Shown piece by piece: positions 4,335 through 13,629 of a stretch of 64,000 nt of DNA (within the stretch, counting starts at the first letter, position 1; the number at the start of each line of letters is the position of its first letter). The stretch is taken from positions 87,723 to 151,722 of the forward strand of contig JAGCUA010000069.1 in assembly GCA_017963125.1 (NCBI GenBank), given 5' to 3'. The stretch comes from a bacterium (GTDB taxonomy: Bacteria > UBP6 > UBA1177). The position numbers were made by a program, and so were the translations under genes. The notes under the pieces were generated by a model. That model saw nothing but the letters and a program-made list of their open reading frames with translations, did no database searches and had not been told where the DNA came from.

Positions 4335-4439
4335 TTTCCACCTCTAAATAAAAAAACCGCGATATGATAGGCAGAAAGGGTTCATTTGCAAGTTTTTTGG
4401 AAATCCTGAAAGTGTCGGAAAATTTTTTCATTTTTCTCC

Positions 4440-6558: not shown

Positions 6559-6635
6559 GCCTGAAAACCCTCAAGAAGTTTTGCAATCAGCTTTTAATGT
6601 GCTATATTCGCGCGGTTTTTTTATTGGAGGATTTC

Positions 6636-7430
6636 ATGGAAAAAGTGAGCGTTCTGATACTTACAGGCTACGGCATCAACTGCGATGTCGAAACGTCCTG
6701 GGCTTTTGAAGCAGCAGGTGCGGACAGGATCGAAAGAGTCCACGTCAACCGCGTCGTAAACGGCGAAGTCAACCCCGAAGATTTTCAGATCATGGTTTTT
6801 CCCGGCGGCTTTTCATTCGGTGACCACATCGCTTCAGGCCGAGTTTTAGGGCTCAAAGTCAAAAAAGAGATGGGCGAAAAGCTCAAAAAATTCATACTCG
6901 ACGGCAAACTCGTCATCGGAATATGCAACGGTTTCCAGACACTCGTCAAAATGGGCGTTCTCCCAGGCGACGAAAAGGAAGTTTTCAAAAAACAGGTCGC
7001 GACCCTCACCCACAATGACTCTGCTAAATACGAGGACAGATGGGTCCGCATCAAGGCAAACCCGAACAACCCGTCGCCGTTCCTTCAGGGGATCGATATT
7101 TTTGATGTCGCGATACGCCACGGTGAAGGCAAATTCATCGCGCAGCAGCATGACCTCAGAATGATAAAAGACAGCAACATGATCGCCTTCCAGTATGTTG
7201 ACAAAAACGGCGAGATCACGCAGCACTATCCCGAAAATCCGAACGGATCGGAACTTGCGATCGCAGGTATCACCAACAAAAAAGGCAACGTTCTCGGCAT
7301 GATGCCGCACCCCGAAGTTTTCATCAACGGTACACAGCATCCCGAATGGACGAGAATGGATAAAATGCCCGAAGCTCTCGGGCTCAAACTTTTCTCCAAT
7401 GCAGTCAGGTACGTCAGAGAAAAATTATGA
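6636..7430 (+). CDS. purQ: phosphoribosylformylglycinamidine synthase glutaminase subunit (PurQ-type class I amidotransferase)
   Basis: Start MEKVSVLILTGYGINCD after GGAGG at 6626-6630. Nucleophile elbow GICNGFQ and His-Glu motif MMPHPE. No purL or purS adjacent. Confidence 0.8.
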   Translation: MEKVSVLILTGYGINCDVETSWAFEAAGADRIERVHVNRVVNGEVNPEDFQIMVFPGGFSFGDHIASGRVLGLKVKKEMGEKLKKFILDGKLVIGICNGFQTLVKMGVLPGDEKEVFKKQVATLTHNDSAKYEDRWVRIKANPNNPSPFLQGIDIFDVAIRHGEGKFIAQQHDLRMIKDSNMIAFQYVDKNGEITQHYPENPNGSELAIAGITNKKGNVLGMMPHPEVFINGTQHPEWTRMDKMPEALGLKLFSNAVRYVREKL

Positions 7431-7569: not shown

Positions 7570-10194
7570 TTAGATATTCTTCAATAATTCAGAGAACTTG
7601 TTGAAATCGACTGCCGGAGCTCCGCCCTGAGCCATATCGGGTTTTCCGCCGCCGCGGCCTCCGAATTCGGCAAGGATGTTTTTAAGGATATTTCCTGCGT
7701 GGAACTTGGTTTTTGCCTCGCCCGTCGCAGAAATTATTACAAGCGCTTTGCCTGAATCGTCGCCTACGACCGCAATAACGGCGTTGTCGAACTTAGCCTT
7801 GAGCGAATCGACGAGTTCAAGTGATTCAGCACGGTTTTTGCCGGAATTTATCGCAAAAATCTTGGTCCCCTCTTTTTCGCAGATCGGAGCGAGCGAAGCA
7901 GTCTGCATCGCGGCGAGTTTTTTGCCGGCTTCCTTGAGTTCGCGTGAAAGCTGTTTTGCCGTATCGATCTGTTTCTCGACTCCTTTGACAACAAGCGACT
8001 TCTCGCTGCCTGTCATTTCGGCGATCGAAGTTATCGTTTCGTCGTATTCCTGGAAAAGAGCGAGCGCGCCGAGCCCTGTTACAGCCTCAATCCTGCGAAC
8101 TCCCGCCGCGATCCCTTCTTCTTTCACGATTTTGAAAAGACCGATGTCGCCCGTTGCTCTGACGTGCGTTCCGCCGCAGAGCTCCTTGCTTTCGCCCATC
8201 GTTACGACGCGGACGTTTTCACCGTATTTTTCGCCGAAAAGTGCCATCGCACCCTCTTTTTTGGCCTCTTCGATTCCTTTTACGACCGTATTCTGCGGAG
8301 AGTTTGCCTCGATCATACGGTTTACTTCGGTTTCAACGCGTTTAAGTTCATCTTTAGTCACAGCCTGGAAGTGGTTGAAGTCGAAACGGAGTCTGTCGGG
8401 GCCGACCAGTGAACCGGCCTGGTTGACGTGCGTTCCCAGAACCATCTTCAGAGCGCGGTGCAGAAGGTGCGTCGCCGAGTGGTTGCGCCTTGTTGCGGAG
8501 CGCCTTTCATGGTCAAGCTCCTGCTGAACCGTGTCGCCGGTATTCAGAACATCGAGAACTTCGAGTTTAGCGACTTTTACATCGTGAACTTTTATCACAT
8601 CAACGACTTTCGCCGCGATCTTGCCGTTTTTCATAACTTTGCCGTTATCTGCAAGCTGGCCGCCGGACTCAGCGTAAAAAACTATCGGATCAAAGATTGC
8701 GTAGCAGTTTCCGTAGCTTACGCTCTCTTTTTTCGTAAATTCATCGTCAAAAAGCGCGACTATTTTTCCTTCGCACTCTTCCGTGTCGTAGCCTTTGAAA
8801 ACGGGCTCTTTCATGCCGCCGTCAAGCAGTTCCTTAACAGCCGAAAGCTTCTGTGAATCCATTTTCGCGCTCCACGAAGCCTTTCCGCGCTGCTTCTGCT
8901 CCTGCATCGCCTTTTCGTATTCAGCCTGATTGAAGGAGAAACCTTTCTCTTCAAGGATCGTTTCAGTGAGGTCTGACGGGAATCCGTAAGTATCGTAAAG
9001 TTTGAAAACAAGCTCGCCCGGGAACTCCTTTCTTCCGTTTGCGAGCATCTCTTTCAAGCCGTCGTCAAGCAGAGCCAGACCTTTGTCCAGAGTCTGTCTG
9101 AAACGCGCTTCCTCGTCGCGGACGATGTTGAGGATAAGTTCCTGTTTTTCGACAAGTTCCGGATAGTGGTTTCCCATGATCCTGATGACTTCGCCGCAGA
9201 CTTTCCAGAAGAAAAGCTCGTTGAAACCGAGTTTGTGGCCGTGTCTGATCGCTCGGCGCATGATCCTGCGGAGAACATAACCGCGACCTTCGTTTGAAGG
9301 CGTGATCGTGTCGGCAATGAGGAAAGAAGTGCTTCTTGCGTGGTCTGCAATAACATTGAGACTCGAACGAAGCTCAGCCGGAACAGTCTTTCCGAGCAGA
9401 TTTTCGGTGAAATGAATTAAATCCTGGAAAATGTCGATATCGTAATTCGAAAGTTTGCCGTTGAGTATCGAAGTTATTCTCTCAAGTCCCATTCCGGTAT
9501 CGATGTTCGGCTTCGGGAGCGGAGTCAGTTTGCCTGTCTCGTCGCGGTTGAACTGCATGAAAACGAGGTTCCATATCTCGACAAACCTGCCGCAGTCGAA
9601 GTCGGGCATTCCGTTGTCGAAGAAAGGTTTTTCGGCCTTGAAACCTTCACCCAGATCGTAGTGGATCTCGCTGCACGGACCGCACGGACCGGTATCGCCC
9701 ATCTGCCAGAAGTTGTCGTGCTCGTCAAGACGGAAAATGTGCTTCGGATCGACGTCTGTATTTTTCAGCCAGAGCTGCTCGGCCTCGTCATCCTCTCTGA
9801 AAACCGTGACGTAAAGGCGTGATTTATCGAGTTTGAAAACTTCCGTGATGAGTTCCCACGCATATTTTATCGCATCTTCCTTGAAGTAGTCGCCGAAAGA
9901 AAAGTTTCCGAGCATTTCGAAAAACGTGTGGTGACGCGTCGTGAAGCCGACGTTTTCAAGGTCGTTGTGCTTTCCGCCCGCTCTGACGCACTTCTGAGCG
10001 CTGCATGCACGGGTGTAACTTCTTTTTTCAAGCCCTAAAAACAGCTTCTTGAACTGGTTCATTCCGGCATTTGCGAAAAGAAGAGTGTTGTCTTCTGCCG
10101 GAAGAAGCGGCGAACTTGCAACTTCGGTGTGGCCTTTAGCTTTGAAAAAATCCAAAAAAGTCCTTCTGACTTTGTCTATCGTCCAGTTATCCAT
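7570..10194 (-). CDS. alaS: alanyl-tRNA synthetase
   Basis: Start MDNWTIDKV preceded by AAGGAGGG; the track ORF is extended by 7 codons. HHTFFEMLGNFSFGDYFK, editing-domain HSATHLLH and CGGTHV, DHHA1-like C-terminus. Confidence 0.97.
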   Translation of the reverse strand: MDNWTIDKVRRTFLDFFKAKGHTEVASSPLLPAEDNTLLFANAGMNQFKKLFLGLEKRSYTRACSAQKCVRAGGKHNDLENVGFTTRHHTFFEMLGNFSFGDYFKEDAIKYAWELITEVFKLDKSRLYVTVFREDDEAEQLWLKNTDVDPKHIFRLDEHDNFWQMGDTGPCGPCSEIHYDLGEGFKAEKPFFDNGMPDFDCGRFVEIWNLVFMQFNRDETGKLTPLPKPNIDTGMGLERITSILNGKLSNYDIDIFQDLIHFTENLLGKTVPAELRSSLNVIADHARSTSFLIADTITPSNEGRGYVLRRIMRRAIRHGHKLGFNELFFWKVCGEVIRIMGNHYPELVEKQELILNIVRDEEARFRQTLDKGLALLDDGLKEMLANGRKEFPGELVFKLYDTYGFPSDLTETILEEKGFSFNQAEYEKAMQEQKQRGKASWSAKMDSQKLSAVKELLDGGMKEPVFKGYDTEECEGKIVALFDDEFTKKESVSYGNCYAIFDPIVFYAESGGQLADNGKVMKNGKIAAKVVDVIKVHDVKVAKLEVLDVLNTGDTVQQELDHERRSATRRNHSATHLLHRALKMVLGTHVNQAGSLVGPDRLRFDFNHFQAVTKDELKRVETEVNRMIEANSPQNTVVKGIEEAKKEGAMALFGEKYGENVRVVTMGESKELCGGTHVRATGDIGLFKIVKEEGIAAGVRRIEAVTGLGALALFQEYDETITSIAEMTGSEKSLVVKGVEKQIDTAKQLSRELKEAGKKLAAMQTASLAPICEKEGTKIFAINSGKNRAESLELVDSLKAKFDNAVIAVVGDDSGKALVIISATGEAKTKFHAGNILKNILAEFGGRGGGKPDMAQGGAPAVDFNKFSELLKNI

Positions 10195-10224
10195 AATTCC
10201 CTCCTTAAAAAACAAAACCGCGCG

Positions 10225-10252
10225 ATTGTAGTTTTGTTTGTGCTTTTCTCAA
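10225..10252 (-). promoter_or_regulatory. sigma70-type promoter of alaS (inside repeat copy 1)
   Basis: Minus strand reads TTGAGA (10252-10247), a 16-nt spacer, then TACAAT (10230-10225). It lies about 30 nt upstream of the alaS ATG. Confidence 0.55.
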
Positions 10253-10257
10253 GAAAA
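10229..10257. repeat. 29-bp perfect direct repeat, copy 1 (TAGTTTTGTTTGTGCTTTTCTCAAGAAAA)
   Basis: Identical to 11755-11783. Extends to 34 bp (10224-10257 vs 11750-11783) with one mismatch. Confidence 0.95.
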
Positions 10258-10281
10258 TTCTGACAAACAGCGGCTCGAAAA

Positions 10282-11712
10282 TCAGTCGAAATCAGGCTCT
10301 TCGACCTTGCCTATGAAAAGAAGCGTGCCGGTTCTGTCGTCGCGGACAGCAAATACAAACGGACGGTCGAAACGGAAAAAGGTCGGATTAAAGCCGTATT
10401 CGCTTGCGCCGACTTCAACGTAGACTTCGGTTACAGCCGATGCCTCGACTCCCTTTTCATCCATACTGAAATAGGTGTTGTGGAGAATCTTGCTGATAAT
10501 GAGTTTGTCACTGACAATCCCGTCGAAGCCGTAATTCCAGTCAAATGGCTTTCTGAGCCCCATCGCGGAAAAGTCATCCTGAATCGACTCGTCGTATTCG
10601 AATCTGACGCGCGGAAGCTCGAACTCGCAGTATTTTATGGACGCACTGTTGACTCTGTCGAAATATTCCCCGATTCCGTTTTCAGCCATCTCGGAAATCA
10701 TAGCGTCAACAGAACCGTCTGAGTCCCGCGGCATGAAGAAGTATATCGAAGCCGCGTGTCTCCCGAAAGGAACAGCCAGCATCCGGATATCCTGCCCATT
10801 GTAGAACCGGCGCTCACGAAGCATTCCGCTGAAGAACTGAGCCGGTTTTGTTCTACCGTTGCTCATTGTAAAATATCCCTGTTCAATATCTCCTTCCGAG
10901 TCGACCTGCTGCATCCAGTTTGCCCGAAAATAGACCGCATTGAGCAGGAGCATCATCGTTTCTTTGTCTATTTCATCAATAATTTCAGGAATTTTCCCCT
11001 TCGTCTTACTATTGACCCAGGAATTGATCAGCCCGACAGTTTTCGGATCAGCGAAATCCTTAACAAAATAGCCGGCGTCATAATACTTTTGAAGATCGTT
11101 CACAAACGTCTTGTTGACCTTTCCCGAAAAGGCGTCGTCAAGCCACATCGAATTTGCCAGAGAAAGCTCGAAATCCTTATCGAAATAGGTCAGACTCTGC
11201 AAAAGAAAGTCGAACTGCCCGTTCAGCGTCATGTAATCGTCGAATCCCGCCGCCTTGTAGCCGAGAAAATCGATCAGCTCGTCGTAGGTTTCGCTGTTTC
11301 CCGCACCACCGAGAGTCATCGCCATGGCGATTGAAATCGAAAGCGGTGAAATCATGATGTTTTCGCCAGGCTCGCTGAGCTTCGCGAAGAGTTTCATTCC
11401 GAAGTTCGTGTTCGCCTCGACAAACGGAGCCAGAACCTGCTCCGCCTGAGCATCCGCCTTCGCGTAGGCATTCTGCCACTCCTCATAAGTCTGCGGAGCG
11501 GAATCTTCAGCATCTTCAGTAAAATCATCGTCAAAATCGTCGATTCCATCGTCATTGACGACCTCAAAATCGGCAGTTTCATCGTCATTGAAGGGAGCAG
11601 AATCGGCATCATCACCCTGCCCTTCCCCCTTCTCTCCGCTTGAAGAACTGCCGCAGCAGCCAGCAAACAATAAAATCATAAAAAAGCCAATCAAAACGAT
11701 GAGTTTTTTCAT
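10282..11712 (-). CDS. serpin-family protein, predicted lipoprotein with an acidic linker
   Basis: Start MKKLIVLIGFFMILLFAGC (lipobox) after GGAGG; the track ORF has a 22-codon upstream extension. Serpin body ends with hinge EKGVEASAVT and FRFDRPFVFAVRD. A D/E-rich stretch follows the lipobox. Confidence 0.85.
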   Translation of the reverse strand: MKKLIVLIGFFMILLFAGCCGSSSSGEKGEGQGDDADSAPFNDDETADFEVVNDDGIDDFDDDFTEDAEDSAPQTYEEWQNAYAKADAQAEQVLAPFVEANTNFGMKLFAKLSEPGENIMISPLSISIAMAMTLGGAGNSETYDELIDFLGYKAAGFDDYMTLNGQFDFLLQSLTYFDKDFELSLANSMWLDDAFSGKVNKTFVNDLQKYYDAGYFVKDFADPKTVGLINSWVNSKTKGKIPEIIDEIDKETMMLLLNAVYFRANWMQQVDSEGDIEQGYFTMSNGRTKPAQFFSGMLRERRFYNGQDIRMLAVPFGRHAASIYFFMPRDSDGSVDAMISEMAENGIGEYFDRVNSASIKYCEFELPRVRFEYDESIQDDFSAMGLRKPFDWNYGFDGIVSDKLIISKILHNTYFSMDEKGVEASAVTEVYVEVGASEYGFNPTFFRFDRPFVFAVRDDRTGTLLFIGKVEEPDFD

Positions 11713-11750
11713 ATCGACCTCCTGCATATTTTCATCAAATCCAACGCAGG

Positions 11751-11778
11751 ATTTTAGTTTTGTTTGTGCTTTTCTCAA
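11751..11778 (-). promoter_or_regulatory. sigma70-type promoter of the serpin gene (inside repeat copy 2)
   Basis: Minus strand reads TTGAGA (11778-11773), a 16-nt spacer, then TAAAAT (11756-11751). Same sequence as the alaS promoter except one base in the -10. Confidence 0.5.
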
Positions 11779-11783
11779 GAAAA
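11755..11783. repeat. 29-bp perfect direct repeat, copy 2
   Basis: Identical to 10229-10257. On the plus strand it also supplies a TTGTGC -35-like element 16 nt before the TATAAT (11786-11791) of pepF. Confidence 0.95.
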
Positions 11784-11832
11784 ATTATAATAACGGGTTT
11801 TTTGTTTATGAACATTTGATTTGGAGGAAAAA

Positions 11833-13629
11833 ATGCTGAAAAGAAACGAAGTCGACCCGAAAAACTGCTGGCAGACGAGCCACCTTTACAAAAACGAAGA
11901 AGAAGTCGCAAACGAATTCCAGTGCATCGAAAAAGACACTGCCGAAATCGTGAAATTCGCCGGAAAACTCGGTGAAAAGGAAACTCTTCTCAAAGCTCTC
12001 AGAATTTCAAGCGATGCCATGAGAAGAGGCGCAAAACTTCAGTGCTACGCTGACAGGAACCGCGATATCGACATGAGCGTCGGCAAATGGCAGGAACTTT
12101 CAGGCATGGCGGCTGCGGCTATGACAAAAATGGCGGCCGCAAGCTCTTTCATGGAACCGGAACTTCTCTCCTACAGCGAAGAAAAGCTGCTCGGCTTCAA
12201 AAACGACCCCGATTTCAGTGATTTTTCAAGATACTTCGATGCTATTCTTCTGAACAAGCCGCACACTCTCTCAGAACCTGAAGAGAAGATCATGGCTGAG
12301 TTCGGCGGACTCGCTCTCGGCGAATACGAAACCTATTCGACTTTTTCGTCGGCTGACATGAAATTCCCAGAAATCGAGCTTGAAGGCGAAAAAATGGAAG
12401 CAAATATCCAGACTTACGCAAGATTCCGCCAGAGCGACAACCGCGAGACGAGAAAGAAAATCTTCGACGTTTTCTGGAAAACTTACGACAGCTACAAAAA
12501 CTCGCTCGCGAAGATGCTCCACTACCAGACGAAATACTATGCGACAGTCGCAAAGATCAGAAAATACTCCGATGCTCTCGACAAGGAGATGAAGGAAAAC
12601 GAGCTTCCCTCGACATTCTTCTACACACTCCGCGACAACGTCCGCGCCATTCTGCCGGCACTTCACGAATATCTGGCACTCAAAAAGGAAGTCCTCAATA
12701 TTCCGGATCAGGGATATCACGATATTTACGCGACGATGGTCAAAGGCGGAAACAGCAGAGTCTACACCTACGAAGATTCGGTCAAACTCGTAAACGAAGC
12801 GATGTCCTGCATGACCGACGAATACAGAAAAGCTATCGCAGAAGCAATGGATCCTGCGAACGGCTGGGTCGATATCTATCCGAACGAAGGCAAAGTGAGC
12901 GGCGCATACATGGAAGGCATGGCTTACGACACGCACCCTTATGTTCTCTTGAACCACATTGACGACTACAATTCTGCTTCAACTTTAGCTCACGAGATGG
13001 GTCACGCGATCCATTCATACTACTCCAATAAGTTCCAGCCTTACGAAAAATCGCAGTACACGATCTTCGTTGCCGAGGTCGCAAGCACGTTCAACGAAAT
13101 CATGCTCATCAACCGCCTTATCGACACGACACAGGACAAGGAAGAGAAGAAATTCCTCCTTAACCACTTCATCGAAATGGCACGCGCTACCGTTTTCAGA
13201 CAGATGCAGTTCGCAGAATTTGAAGATGCGATCTACAAAAAAGTCGAAGCCGGCGAAGTTCTCACTCCTGAGTTCCTCAACGACCTTTACGGCAAGACCT
13301 TGAGCAGATACTATGGCGAAGAATACGGCCTCATGAAGATAGAAGAGCTCTACAAAAACGAGTGGGCTTTCGTTCCTCATTTCTACTACAACTACTATGT
13401 TTACAAGTATGTCGTCGGCTTTATCGGCGCTCTTTCGCTCGCTGAAGGTGTAAGAAGCGGCAAGATCCCGGCAGAACAGTATATCAATGGATTCCTCAAG
13501 GCTGGAACATCGAAACCGCCTATTGAGATCCTCAAGGACGCAGGCGTTGACATGACCGATATCGCGCCTTACAAAATGTTCGAGAAAGTTTTCGTCGAGA
13601 AGCTTCAACAGTTGAAAGAACTGCTGTAA
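11833..13629 (+). CDS. pepF: oligoendopeptidase F (M3B metallopeptidase)
   Basis: Start MLKRNEV after GGAGG at 11823-11827. Zinc motif HEMGHAIHS and about 600 aa, typical of PepF. Confidence 0.88.
   Translation: MLKRNEVDPKNCWQTSHLYKNEEEVANEFQCIEKDTAEIVKFAGKLGEKETLLKALRISSDAMRRGAKLQCYADRNRDIDMSVGKWQELSGMAAAAMTKMAAASSFMEPELLSYSEEKLLGFKNDPDFSDFSRYFDAILLNKPHTLSEPEEKIMAEFGGLALGEYETYSTFSSADMKFPEIELEGEKMEANIQTYARFRQSDNRETRKKIFDVFWKTYDSYKNSLAKMLHYQTKYYATVAKIRKYSDALDKEMKENELPSTFFYTLRDNVRAILPALHEYLALKKEVLNIPDQGYHDIYATMVKGGNSRVYTYEDSVKLVNEAMSCMTDEYRKAIAEAMDPANGWVDIYPNEGKVSGAYMEGMAYDTHPYVLLNHIDDYNSASTLAHEMGHAIHSYYSNKFQPYEKSQYTIFVAEVASTFNEIMLINRLIDTTQDKEEKKFLLNHFIEMARATVFRQMQFAEFEDAIYKKVEAGEVLTPEFLNDLYGKTLSRYYGEEYGLMKIEELYKNEWAFVPHFYYNYYVYKYVVGFIGALSLAEGVRSGKIPAEQYINGFLKAGTSKPPIEILKDAGVDMTDIAPYKMFEKVFVEKLQQLKELL

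What the first reader, a model, noticed from the sequence alone, without database searches (positions are those of the whole stretch)
10224..11783. Serpin gene bracketed by 29-bp perfect direct repeats that carry a promoter
TAGTTTTGTTTGTGCTTTTCTCAAGAAAA occurs at 10229-10257 and again at 11755-11783. The match extends to 34 bp with one mismatch. The two copies flank exactly one gene, the serpin. On the minus strand each copy reads as a full promoter: TTGAGA, 16 nt, then TACAAT or TAAAAT. Copy 1 drives alaS and copy 2 drives the serpin. On the plus strand copy 2 also supplies the -35 region for pepF. The simplest reading is an ancestral alaS/pepF divergent promoter region. A roughly 1.5-kb serpin cassette was then inserted or duplicated into it, copying the alaS promoter. 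That would wire a protease inhibitor to a housekeeping promoter.
Basis: seen in the sequence. Interest (0 to 1): 0.65.

Follow-up and report, generated by a model that had tools for sequence, protein, structure and literature searches.

The report
Duplicated promoter brackets an accessory serpin
In an uncultured rumen bacterium, a protease-inhibitor (serpin) gene lies between two copies of one small two-way promoter; related species show that this layout is old and that the serpin has been lost or swapped repeatedly, a clear but ordinary case of promoter reuse at a gene-exchange hot spot.

Summary
The exact 29-mer occurs at 10229-10257 and 11755-11783, with none expected by chance. The match extends to 39 nt (36/39). 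It brackets one gene, a lipoprotein serpin, between alaS and pepF.

The 29-mer is the core of a roughly 40-bp overlapping divergent sigma70-type promoter. Leftward it reads TTGAGA-16-TACAAT or TAAAAT. Rightward it reads TTGTGC-16-TATAAT.

The window comes from rumen MAG lineages of candidate phylum UBP6. Eight related loci have an empty site with a single copy: six are alaS<-P->pepF and two are cyclophilin<-P->pepF. Eight others plus the window have the serpin bracketed by two copies.

The arrangement is not a recent insertion. It is shared by lineages whose flanking genes differ by 6-15% in nucleotides, while the 29-mer stays almost invariant. alaS fourfold sites are only about 70% identical.

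The same module also precedes a cyclophilin operon, a DUF6273 lipoprotein and other cassettes. The window's own metagenomes hold a third copy. No integrase, transposase, phage hit or RNA motif is involved.

Best reading: an old duplicated promoter under purifying selection, at a recombination hot spot. The direct repeats allow precise loss or swapping of the serpin. Promoter activity and the direction of events are inferred, not shown.

The parts
10219..10257 (.). Repeat copy 1 (P1). Exact 29-mer core at 10229-10257, with a homologous left extension CGCGCGATTG.
   Evidence: D10: 39 nt, 92%
11745..11783 (.). Repeat copy 2 (P2). Exact 29-mer core at 11755-11783, with left extension CGCAGGATTT.
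10225..10252 (-). Predicted alaS promoter: -35 TTGAGA (10252-10247), 16-nt spacer, -10 TACAAT (10230-10225). It is followed by the GC-rich discriminator CGCGCGG, a T-rich leader, SD GGAGGG (10204-10199) and the ATG at 10194.
   Evidence: 10/12 matches. The same architecture lies upstream of the purQ-like gene at 6603 and near serS (I1/I13, 76). Activity was not tested.
11751..11778 (-). Predicted serpin promoter: -35 TTGAGA (11778-11773), 16-nt spacer, -10 TAAAAT (11756-11751). SD GGAGGT is at 11722-11717 and the ATG at 11712.
   Evidence: 10/12 matches. Serpin fragments at 98% identity or more appear in rumen metatranscriptome contigs. The TSS was not mapped.
11764..11791 (+). Predicted pepF promoter, overlapping the serpin promoter back to back: -35 TTGTGC (11764-11769), 16-nt spacer, -10 TATAAT (11786-11791).
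   Evidence: Read directly from the sequence. It is invariant in 15 pepF-adjacent contexts. Metatranscriptome contigs of relatives end at 11801 and 11806.
7570..10194 (-). alaS (alanyl-tRNA synthetase)
   Evidence: tRNA-synt_2c at 2.6e-201, tRNA_SAD, DHHA1
10282..11712 (-). Accessory serpin of 476 aa. It has a lipoprotein-type signal peptide (MKKLIVLIGFFMILLFAGC), an acidic repeat linker, a full serpin domain and an inhibitory-type hinge EKGVEASAVT.
   Evidence: (conserpin 3e-47, miropin-type serpin 5ncs 1e-43, tengpin 2e-40)
10258..10281 (.). 24-nt spacer between P1 and the serpin stop codon. It holds no terminator-like hairpin, so read-through from the serpin into alaS is likely.
   Evidence: fold z-score 0.37
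11833..13629 (+). pepF (M3 oligoendopeptidase F)
   Evidence: Peptidase_M3 at 1e-59, Peptidase_M3_N

Best explanation
The 29-mer is the nearly invariant core of a roughly 40-bp compact two-way promoter module, P. Its leftward and rightward sigma70-type promoters overlap back to back.

In this genus-level group of uncultured rumen bacteria (candidate phylum UBP6), P sits at the borders of a variable segment. That segment lies between core genes: alaS or a cyclophilin-queD operon on one side, and usually pepF on the other.

In the window, two direct copies bracket an accessory lipoprotein serpin. Copy 1 is the alaS promoter. Copy 2 drives the serpin leftward and pepF rightward. No terminator follows the serpin, so its transcript probably continues into alaS.

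The duplication is old and is kept identical mainly by purifying selection. Repeated recombination between copies may add to this. The two copies give 29-39 bp of perfect direct homology, and the flanking core genes are highly conserved. The serpin can therefore be deleted precisely, leaving alaS<-P->pepF, or exchanged for other cassettes or alleles by homologous recombination. This would produce the patchy presence and absence seen among species.

Shown: the repeat, the empty and occupied sites, the conservation, the range of contexts, and the absence of mobile-element genes. Inferred: promoter activity, the recombination mechanism, and the direction of individual events.
For: Repeat and gene layout.

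Empty sites with one copy: L001/L020, L002/L027, L003/L019, L005/L015, L013 and L011 (alaS<-P->pepF), plus L007/L017 and L009 (cyclophilin<-P->pepF).

Occupied sites with two direct copies: the window, L006/L024, L008/L016, L010, L012, L037/38, L039/40, L041/42 and L043.

Age and constraint. alaS and pepF nucleotide identity between these genomes is 85-97%. alaS fourfold sites average 70% identity and only 40% of fourfold columns are invariant. Yet the 29-mer has only 5 variable positions across 28 distinct contexts. The chance of 29 neutral columns showing at most one variable column is about 1e-10. Copy-specific variants persist across lineages: TAT only in pepF-side copies of four lineages, and TTTGCGC only in P1 of L041. 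This argues for orthologous, long-separated copies.

Turnover and replacement. L014 keeps the serpin-type P2 flank (gtccgccgcagaatttTAT) but carries AAA14, 379-aa and 1190-aa genes instead of the serpin. L012, L039 and L043 add a DUF6273 lipoprotein that has the serpin's signal peptide. The nearest neighbours for alaS and for pepF disagree, and the serpin alleles (three groups at 81-84% aa identity) are mosaic and do not follow alaS.

Promoter reading. Both leftward copies score 10/12. The same TTGnnn-16-TAnAnT-CGCGCGG-T-run-SD-ATG architecture lies upstream of the purQ-like gene at 6603 and near serS. The Pbeta allele changes the spacer but keeps the leftward hexamers and spacing. Transcript contigs resembling pepF end 10-15 nt after the TATAAT.

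Locus specificity. Scans of all species genomes with the 29-mer and the 20-mer hit only this locus family, plus one hit taken as chance. There are no viral hits. No recombinase or transposase lies within 1-22 kb of the window.

Third copy. A third copy occurs at matching depth beside the cyclophilin gene in all four metagenomes that hold the window sequence.
Against: No transcription start site was mapped. The only RNA data are assembled metatranscriptome contigs, which may include DNA carry-over.

No deletion joint or circular form was seen in the contigs of the four DNA runs that hold this strain. Contigs drop rare variants, so this is weak evidence.

Promoter function alone does not explain why spacer bases of copy 1 are invariant in occupied sites, where no rightward promoter is needed. 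Some extra constraint or gene conversion must be assumed.

The polarity of the empty sites (never occupied versus deleted) cannot be read from the junctions, because both histories give the same sequence. The phylogeny is star-like and recombinant, so counting gains against losses by parsimony is not decisive.

The event that first created the duplication is unknown.
Confidence: 0.62

Rival explanations
1. A serpin cassette of about 1.5 kb was recently inserted into an ancestral alaS/pepF divergent promoter in this lineage, copying the alaS promoter in the process as a long target duplication.
For: Empty sites with a single 29-mer exist in close relatives (AlaS 98-99% aa identical: L005/L015, L001/L020). 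The two copies in the window are identical over 29 nt.
Against: The same two-copy architecture occurs in lineages whose flanking genes differ by up to 13% in nucleotides, and those copies carry copy-specific variants. The 29-mer is equally invariant between species, so identity says nothing about age. Serpin alleles differ by 16-19% in amino acids, so they are old. RGIG10212 and UBA1209 keep alaS-P-serpin without an adjacent pepF. No transposase or terminal inverted repeats are present, and a 39-bp target duplication is unlike known insertion sequences.
Confidence: 0.08
2. P is a recombination (att-like) site for a site-specific recombinase encoded elsewhere. Under this model the locus would be an integron-like cassette array, with each cassette border marked by P.
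For: Every rearrangement junction seen falls at the edge of P, right after ...CTCAAGAAAA. This holds for the serpin, DUF6273, AAA14 cassette, cyclophilin and BcrAD partners. The core contains a 6-2-6 inverted repeat, TTTTCT-CA-AGAAAA. Its conservation exceeds what a promoter needs.
Against: No integrase or recombinase gene lies in the 22 kb examined or in any of the related loci. The repeats are direct copies of a promoter, not attC-like imperfect palindromes. There is no structural signal and no phage or viral occurrence. Junctions at P are equally expected from homologous recombination between P copies and from selection to keep promoters intact.
Confidence: 0.08
3. The invariance of the 29-mer reflects an operator for a DNA-binding regulator, so that alaS, serpin, cyclophilin and pepF form a small regulon. 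Candidates include a growth-rate or stringent-type regulator, or AlaRS itself as in E. coli alaS autoregulation. This is compatible with the best explanation and would add a regulatory layer to it.
For: Spacer positions that a sigma70 promoter does not need are invariant in 28 contexts. The palindromic TTTTCT-CA-AGAAAA overlaps the leftward -35. The GC-rich discriminator CGCGCGG after the -10 is shared with other housekeeping genes. From general knowledge, E. coli AlaRS represses its own promoter.
Against: No regulator was identified. The Pbeta allele changes much of the spacer and one arm of the palindrome (CTTTTCTCAAGAAAA becomes ATTTTATCAAGAAAA) yet still sits in front of alaS. AT-rich palindromes of this size are common by chance. 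The overlapping rightward -35 explains part of the spacer constraint.
Confidence: 0.2
4. Assembly artefact: the repeat results from a chimeric join of two contigs at a shared k-mer.
For: MAG-derived sequence; short repeats can seed misjoins.
Against: Contigs from independent runs span both copies and the serpin without differences (X9 10159-12300, X10 10097-12300). The architecture recurs in eight independent assemblies.
Confidence: 0.01

Closest known systems
Putative mobile promoters / promoter reuse (Matus-Garcia, Nijveen and van Passel 2012; Nijveen et al. 2012, PMC3575422)
   Same: A highly similar upstream sequence is shared by non-homologous genes in one genome (alaS, serpin, cyclophilin). 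It is not associated with a known mobile element or Rfam motif. The same open question applies: does identity mean constraint or recent duplication?
   Different: The shared block is about 39-47 nt, below their operational threshold of at least 50 nt. The copies are local, bracketing one variable locus, rather than dispersed. Here comparative data show that the identity is due to long-term constraint.
Deletion and Campbell-type integration between short direct repeats; horizontal-transfer hot spots flanked by conserved core genes
   Same: An accessory segment lies between conserved core genes, with presence/absence polymorphism and allele mosaicism. The direct repeats would leave a scar-free single copy after deletion.
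   Different: The repeats are functional promoters rather than incidental homology. Neither excision nor integration was observed directly.
Integron gene cassettes
   Same: An array-like variable segment of one to three co-oriented genes, with a repeated element at each cassette border and a promoter at the array end.
   Different: There is no integrase and no attC-type imperfect palindromes. Here the repeat is itself the promoter, and each cassette can carry its own copy.
Miropin of Tannerella forsythia and other bacterial serpins (tengpin, thermopin)
   Same: A full serpin fold with an inhibitory-type hinge. A lipoprotein-type signal peptide suggests surface anchoring in a host-associated, protease-rich habitat. 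A miropin-type PDB chain scores 1e-43.
   Different: Identity to anything outside its own UBP6 orthologue group is at most about 42%. It has a long acidic repeat linker, and its reactive-centre loop is longer and hypervariable between alleles. No biochemistry is available.

Membership tests
Sigma70-type promoter | -35 and -10 hexamers close to TTGACA/TATAAT with 16-18 nt spacing | tested here: met
   Leftward TTGAGA-16-TACAAT/TAAAAT scores 10/12 in both copies. Rightward TTGTGC-16-TATAAT has a weak -35.
Sigma70-type promoter | Transcription starts 5-9 nt downstream of the -10 | tested here: inconclusive
   Only assembled metatranscriptome contigs are available. Contigs resembling pepF end at 11801/11806, which is 10-15 nt after the TATAAT. 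No 5' ends were recovered for serpin or alaS.
Putative mobile promoter (PMP, Matus-Garcia et al. 2012) | At least 80% identity over at least 50 nt upstream of genes | tested here: not met
   The shared block is 39 nt at 92%. It fails the length criterion quoted in PMC3575422, although the concept fits.
Putative mobile promoter (PMP, Matus-Garcia et al. 2012) | Downstream coding sequences are not paralogous | tested here: met
   alaS, serpin, cyclophilin, DUF6273 and a 1190-aa gene belong to unrelated Pfam families or have no assigned family.
Insertion sequence / transposon with target-site duplication | Transposase gene, terminal inverted repeats and a short (2-14 bp) target duplication | tested here: not met
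   The only ORF between the repeats is the serpin. No inverted repeats lie at the ends. The repeat is 39 bp. No transposase lies nearby.
Integron cassette array | IntI integrase, attI/attC recombination sites and promoterless cassettes | tested here: not met
   No integrase in the window at 1-22 kb or in related loci. The repeats are direct promoter copies with no folding signal.
Inhibitory serpin | Full serpin domain | tested here: met
   PF00079 aligns over positions 1-370 of 370 at E 3.7e-81. PDB serpins score down to 3e-47.
Inhibitory serpin | Hinge with small residues at P12-P9 that allows loop insertion, and demonstrated protease inhibition | tested here: inconclusive
   The hinge E-K-G-V-E-A-S-A-V-T fits the inhibitory pattern, judged from general knowledge of serpins. 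P14 is Val rather than Thr/Ser. Inhibition cannot be tested here.
Bacterial lipoprotein | Signal peptide ending in a lipobox [LVI][ASTVI][GAS]C | tested here: inconclusive
   The window has L-F-A-G-C and its orthologues have L-S-L-A-G-C. This was judged by eye against the consensus; no predictor was run.
Known structured RNA (T-box, riboswitch, sRNA) | Match to an Rfam covariance model or a significant fold | tested here: not met
   No Rfam match at E up to 1 in 9500-12500. Fold z-scores are 0.37, -0.12 and 1.12.

The most novel reading that the evidence does not exclude
P may be more than a conserved promoter. It could be a portable docking-and-drive module: a two-way promoter about 40 bp long whose invariant sequence also serves as the homology or recognition site through which cassettes enter, leave and move between loci. 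The cassettes seen here are the serpin, the DUF6273 lipoprotein and ATPase/restriction-like genes; the loci are alaS, cyclophilin and pepF. That would give an integron-like, expression-ready cassette system without an integron integrase. Its extreme conservation would then reflect selection for recombination competence, or binding by an unknown protein, as well as for transcription.
Probability: 0.12. Interest if true: 0.65.

Novelty: new member of a known kind. Interest (0 to 1): 0.38.

Why it matters
The locus is a well-resolved natural example of promoter reuse. One essential-gene promoter (alaS) is duplicated to express an accessory, probably surface-anchored protease inhibitor. The second copy also serves a peptidase gene in the other direction.

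The comparative series includes empty, occupied, replaced and rearranged sites across about 20 rumen lineages. It shows that perfect identity of a short intergenic repeat can reflect long-term constraint rather than recent mobility. This is a useful caution when repeats are read as insertion scars.

The series also marks a recombination hot spot in an uncultured phylum (UBP6). The serpin family there has hypervariable reactive loops and may matter for survival among rumen proteases.

It does not reveal a new mechanism.

Tried and rejected
- **Known RNA element.** Rfam at gathering score on L010/L012/L022, and at E up to 1 on window 9500-12500, gave no match.
- **Terminator or structured leader.** Folds of the three intergenic transcripts have z-scores near 0, so this reading was rejected.
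- **Phage or mobile-element origin.** The 26-mer has no hit in viral contigs. No transposase or integrase lies in window 1-22 kb.
- **Generic dispersed promoter.** Scans of all GTDB species genomes with the 29-mer and the 20-mer hit only this locus family, plus one hit in an unrelated Stappiaceae MAG taken as chance. The window has no further copy at up to 7 mismatches.
- **Direct evidence of excision.** DNA contigs of four runs holding this strain show no joint that skips the serpin. This is uninformative for rare variants.
- **TSS mapping.** Only assembled metatranscriptome contigs were available.
- **Context of the third copy (P3).** Eight look-ups of cyclophilin orthologue contexts found Lon-95aa-cyclophilin-queD operons or MatE/ribE neighbours without P. 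None had the P3 right flank TGGATATAGAG....
- **Gain versus loss by parsimony.** The tree is star-like and alaS, pepF and serpin give conflicting neighbours, so I did not force a polarity.
- **CodY or IHF box.** These readings of the 29-mer were considered by eye and do not fit the consensus spacing.
Full report
**1. The observation**

The 29-mer TAGTTTTGTTTGTGCTTTTCTCAAGAAAA occurs exactly twice in the window, at 10229-10257 and 11755-11783. No shuffle of the window produced a match. No third copy appears even at 7 mismatches. Without gaps, the similarity runs for 39 nt, 10219-10257 against 11745-11783, at 36/39.

Between the copies lies one gene on the minus strand, 10282-11712. It is a full-length serpin (PF00079, 3.7e-81). 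On its left is alaS (7570-10194, minus strand). On its right is an M3 oligoendopeptidase, pepF (11833-13629, plus strand).

On the minus strand each copy reads TTGAGA, 16 nt, then TACAAT (copy 1) or TAAAAT (copy 2). Each scores 10 of 12 against the consensus. On the plus strand copy 2 gives TTGTGC (11764-11769), 16 nt, then TATAAT (11786-11791). The -35 is weak, so the scanner did not call this promoter.

The two promoters of copy 2 overlap back to back.

**2. Where the sequence comes from**

Exact-match scans of one genome per species found the 29-mer in eight MAGs from ruminant gut. Their titles read 'bacterium UBP6_UBA1177', RGIG and RUG isolates, and reindeer and red-deer MAGs. A pepF-anchored scan added more of the same group.

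Flanking genes of most of these genomes are 90-97% identical in nucleotides to each other and to the window, with a few deeper lineages at 85-88%. alaS fourfold-degenerate sites average 70% identity. This is a genus-like radiation of uncultured rumen bacteria.

**3. Empty, occupied and other sites**

Six loci have alaS<-single P->pepF: L001/L020, L002/L027, L003/L019, L005/L015, L013 and L011. Some of them have AlaS 98-99% identical to the window's.

The two-copy, serpin-bracketing layout is not peculiar to the window, however. It recurs in:
- L006/L024
- L008/L016
- L010
- L012
- L037/38
- L039/40
- L041/42
- L043

The partners of P also vary:
- In L007/L017 and L009 the left gene is a cyclophilin-queD operon instead of alaS, with no serpin.
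- In L008/L016 and L043 the layout is cyclophilin<-P, serpin<-P->pepF.
- In L037/38 the right partner is a BcrAD/ferredoxin cluster instead of pepF.
- In L012, L039 and L043 an 842-849-aa DUF6273 lipoprotein carrying the serpin's own signal peptide has joined the segment. It sits either behind its own P copy or in an operon with the serpin.
- In L010 an AAA14/DUF4143 ATPase and an Lcl_C lipoprotein lie between P2 and pepF.
- In L014 the serpin is absent. AAA14, 379-aa and 1190-aa genes take its place. The pepF-side copy still carries the left flank and the TAT variant typical of serpin-side copies, which indicates replacement of a former serpin.

Two deeper relatives are also informative. RGIG10212 has alaS<-P, then serpin<-a diverged copy (Pbeta, 19/29), then a comF-like gene; its pepF lies on another contig. 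UBA1209 has a fragmentary alaS remnant, P with 3 mismatches, and the serpin behind an unrelated promoter; its pepF again lies elsewhere.

So the association alaS-P-serpin is at least as old as the association alaS-P-pepF.

**4. Age and constraint**

Across 28 distinct sequence contexts the 29-mer varies at only five positions, while its flanks diverge freely. Only 40% of alaS fourfold columns are invariant in eleven genomes. The chance of 29 neutral columns showing at most one variable column is about 1e-10.

Identity between copy 1 and copy 2 in the window is therefore no evidence of a recent event.

Copy-specific variants persist across lineages. TAT in place of TAG occurs only in the pepF-side copies of four lineages. 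TTTGCGC occurs only in P1 of L041. The two copies therefore behave largely as separate orthologous loci rather than being homogenised continually.

One thing remains unexplained. In occupied sites copy 1 needs no rightward promoter, yet it keeps the rightward -35 and all spacer bases. Either an additional constraint acts (a bound protein or DNA shape), or occasional recombination between the copies resets them.

A second allele, Pbeta (TAGTTTTGAAAGCGATTTTATCAAGAAAA, 20-24/29), lies in front of alaS in L012, L014 and L022. It keeps the leftward hexamers and the 16-nt spacing but loses the rightward -35. That is what a purely leftward promoter would be expected to tolerate.

**5. Is it a promoter?**

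The leftward reading is supported by three points:
- the consensus match;
- retention of the hexamers and spacing in Pbeta;
- the same architecture elsewhere in the window.

That architecture is TTGCAA-16-TATATT-CGCGCGG-T run-GGAGGA-ATG upstream of the purQ-like gene at 6603. A similar -10/CGCGG/T-run lies upstream of serS (I1 and I13). The GC-rich block after the -10 resembles the discriminator of growth-rate-controlled promoters in E. coli. This comparison rests on general knowledge and was not tested.

For the rightward promoter, metatranscriptome contigs of relatives that cover pepF at high depth end at 11801 and 11806, 10-15 nt after the TATAAT.

Serpin fragments at 98-99% identity occur in several rumen metatranscriptomes. 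The gene is therefore probably expressed, but no 5' end was recovered.

The 24 nt between the serpin stop codon and copy 1 hold no terminator-like structure. Read-through into alaS is likely.

No Rfam family matches the region.

**6. Copy number and mobility**

The module is not a generic dispersed promoter. The 29-mer and a 20-mer core occur only at this locus family in 185,579 species genomes. The single exception is a hit in an unrelated Stappiaceae MAG, which I take as chance. The module is absent from viral contigs.

It is not strictly a two-copy element either. All four DNA metagenomes that hold the window's sequence contain another contig at matching depth (15.5 against 14.6; 22 against 19.2). 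That contig matches only 11751-11788, with one mismatch, and carries the cyclophilin gene on its left. The window's organism thus very probably has a third copy, cyclophilin<-P3->unknown.

I could not recover the right flank of P3. Most relatives have the cyclophilin gene inside a Lon-95aa-cyclophilin-queD operon, or next to MatE or ribE, without P.

Recombination between P copies at two loci would account for the alternation between alaS and cyclophilin as left partner.

No integrase, transposase or other recombinase lies in the first 22 kb of the window or in the related loci inspected.

**7. The serpin**

The protein starts with a lipoprotein-type signal peptide (MKKLIVLIGFFMILLFAGC). An acidic linker built from a 33-nt tandem repeat follows (11531-11596, D16). 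Then comes a complete serpin domain.

Its hinge, EKGVEASAVT, fits the inhibitory pattern, judged from general knowledge of serpins.

The closest solved structures are conserpin (3e-47), a miropin-type bacterial serpin (5ncs, 1e-43) and tengpin (2e-40).

In the large protein collection it belongs to a tight orthologue group of 24 clusters at 79-100% identity. Identity then drops to 42% or less.

The alleles fall into three groups at 81-84% identity. They are mosaic and do not follow the alaS tree. They differ most in the reactive-centre loop.

**8. Best explanation and rivals**

Best explanation (confidence about 0.62). This is an old duplication of a compact two-way promoter. It is maintained by selection and sits at a recombination hot spot between conserved core genes.
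- Copy 1 serves alaS.
- Copy 2 serves the serpin and pepF.
- The direct repeats and the conserved flanks allow scar-free loss, re-acquisition and replacement of the accessory segment.

Rival explanations:
- **Recent insertion that copied the promoter (0.08).** Disfavoured by the shared architecture and by the conservation.
- **A site for a dedicated recombinase (0.08).** Not excluded, but no such gene is nearby.
- **An operator layer (0.2).** Compatible with the main model, and it would explain the excess conservation.
- **Assembly artefact.** Excluded.

**9. Comparison with what is known**

The closest concept is promoter reuse, or 'putative mobile promoters' (PMC3575422). The shared block here is shorter than their 50-nt criterion, so it fails their operational definition while fitting the idea.

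It resembles integron arrays only superficially. It fails the tests for transposon target duplications.

The gene itself is a new member of the bacterial serpins. It is most comparable in lifestyle to miropin, although only distantly related in sequence.

**10. Verdict**

It is a tidy example of a known kind of event rather than a new mechanism.

Two things would raise its interest. One is an explanation for the excess conservation of the 29-mer. The other is a demonstration that cassettes move through it.

Noticed in passing
L010:2330-2470 (minus strand), L012:8060-8200, L022:7855-8000, L027:9847-9874: A repeat element of about 150 nt (AACCGTCATTCTGAGCGTAGCGAAGAATCT...TTCCTTGCCTTTTACGGCATAGACC) replaces the P core upstream of pepF in some relatives ('form B' promoter region). 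It also occurs just after pepF in L027. It is absent from the window, has no Rfam match, and looks like a small dispersed MITE-type repeat.
   Followed up: partly
window 11792-11805: The window's pepF upstream region is a hybrid. It has the P core and TATAAT as in most relatives, but is followed by AACGGGTTTTTT as in the form-B regions of L010/L022, not the usual GCCGCGCAATTT. This suggests a past recombination between the two upstream forms.
   Followed up: partly
L012:8248-10776 (-), L039:1431-3980, L043:1431-3980: A DUF6273 lipoprotein of 842-849 aa (three repeats) begins with the same signal peptide as the serpin (MKKLIVLIGFFIILSFAGC). It sits either upstream of the serpin or between the serpin and alaS. 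The promoter, leader and signal-peptide block therefore appears to be reused as a unit for a second secreted protein.
   Followed up: partly
runs X9, X10, X11, X13 (contigs matching window 11751-11788 only): A third copy of the promoter module occurs at the same depth as the window's strain. The cyclophilin gene is on its left, and an unidentified sequence on its right (TGGATATAGAGATTATTTGTGTATATTTGG). The right-hand gene was not recovered.
   Followed up: partly
L029:2200-2510: UBA1209 carries a fragmentary alaS remnant (codons 1-9, then about 101-154) next to P and the serpin, at a locus otherwise unrelated to alaS. This suggests that a serpin-P-alaS' segment was transferred or duplicated by illegitimate recombination.
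   Followed up: partly
window 11531-11596 and serpin residues about 40-75; reactive loop about 10330-10400: The serpin's acidic N-terminal linker is built from a 33-nt tandem repeat whose copy number varies between alleles. The reactive-centre loop is the most variable part of the protein between alleles. This would fit diversifying selection on target specificity.
   Followed up: partly
window 6563-6640 (+) and 4347-4370 (-): The purQ-like gene and serS have the same promoter-leader layout as alaS: -10 box, CGCG(C)GG block, T-run, SD, and an ATG about 20-30 nt from the -10. This suggests very short leaders and a GC-rich discriminator as the norm for housekeeping genes in this organism. The listed ORF start of the purQ-like gene (6597) is probably too far upstream; ATG 6636 fits the SD.
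   Followed up: partly
L014:4284-7856 (-), L022:286-7715 (-): Other cargo occupies the same hot spot: a 1190-aa protein with 379-aa and AAA14/DUF4143 partners in L014, and two lipoproteins of about 1100 aa plus a 222-aa protein I guessed to be Fic-like (no family search run) in L022. The L014 set is possibly defence-related. They were not analysed further.
   Followed up: no
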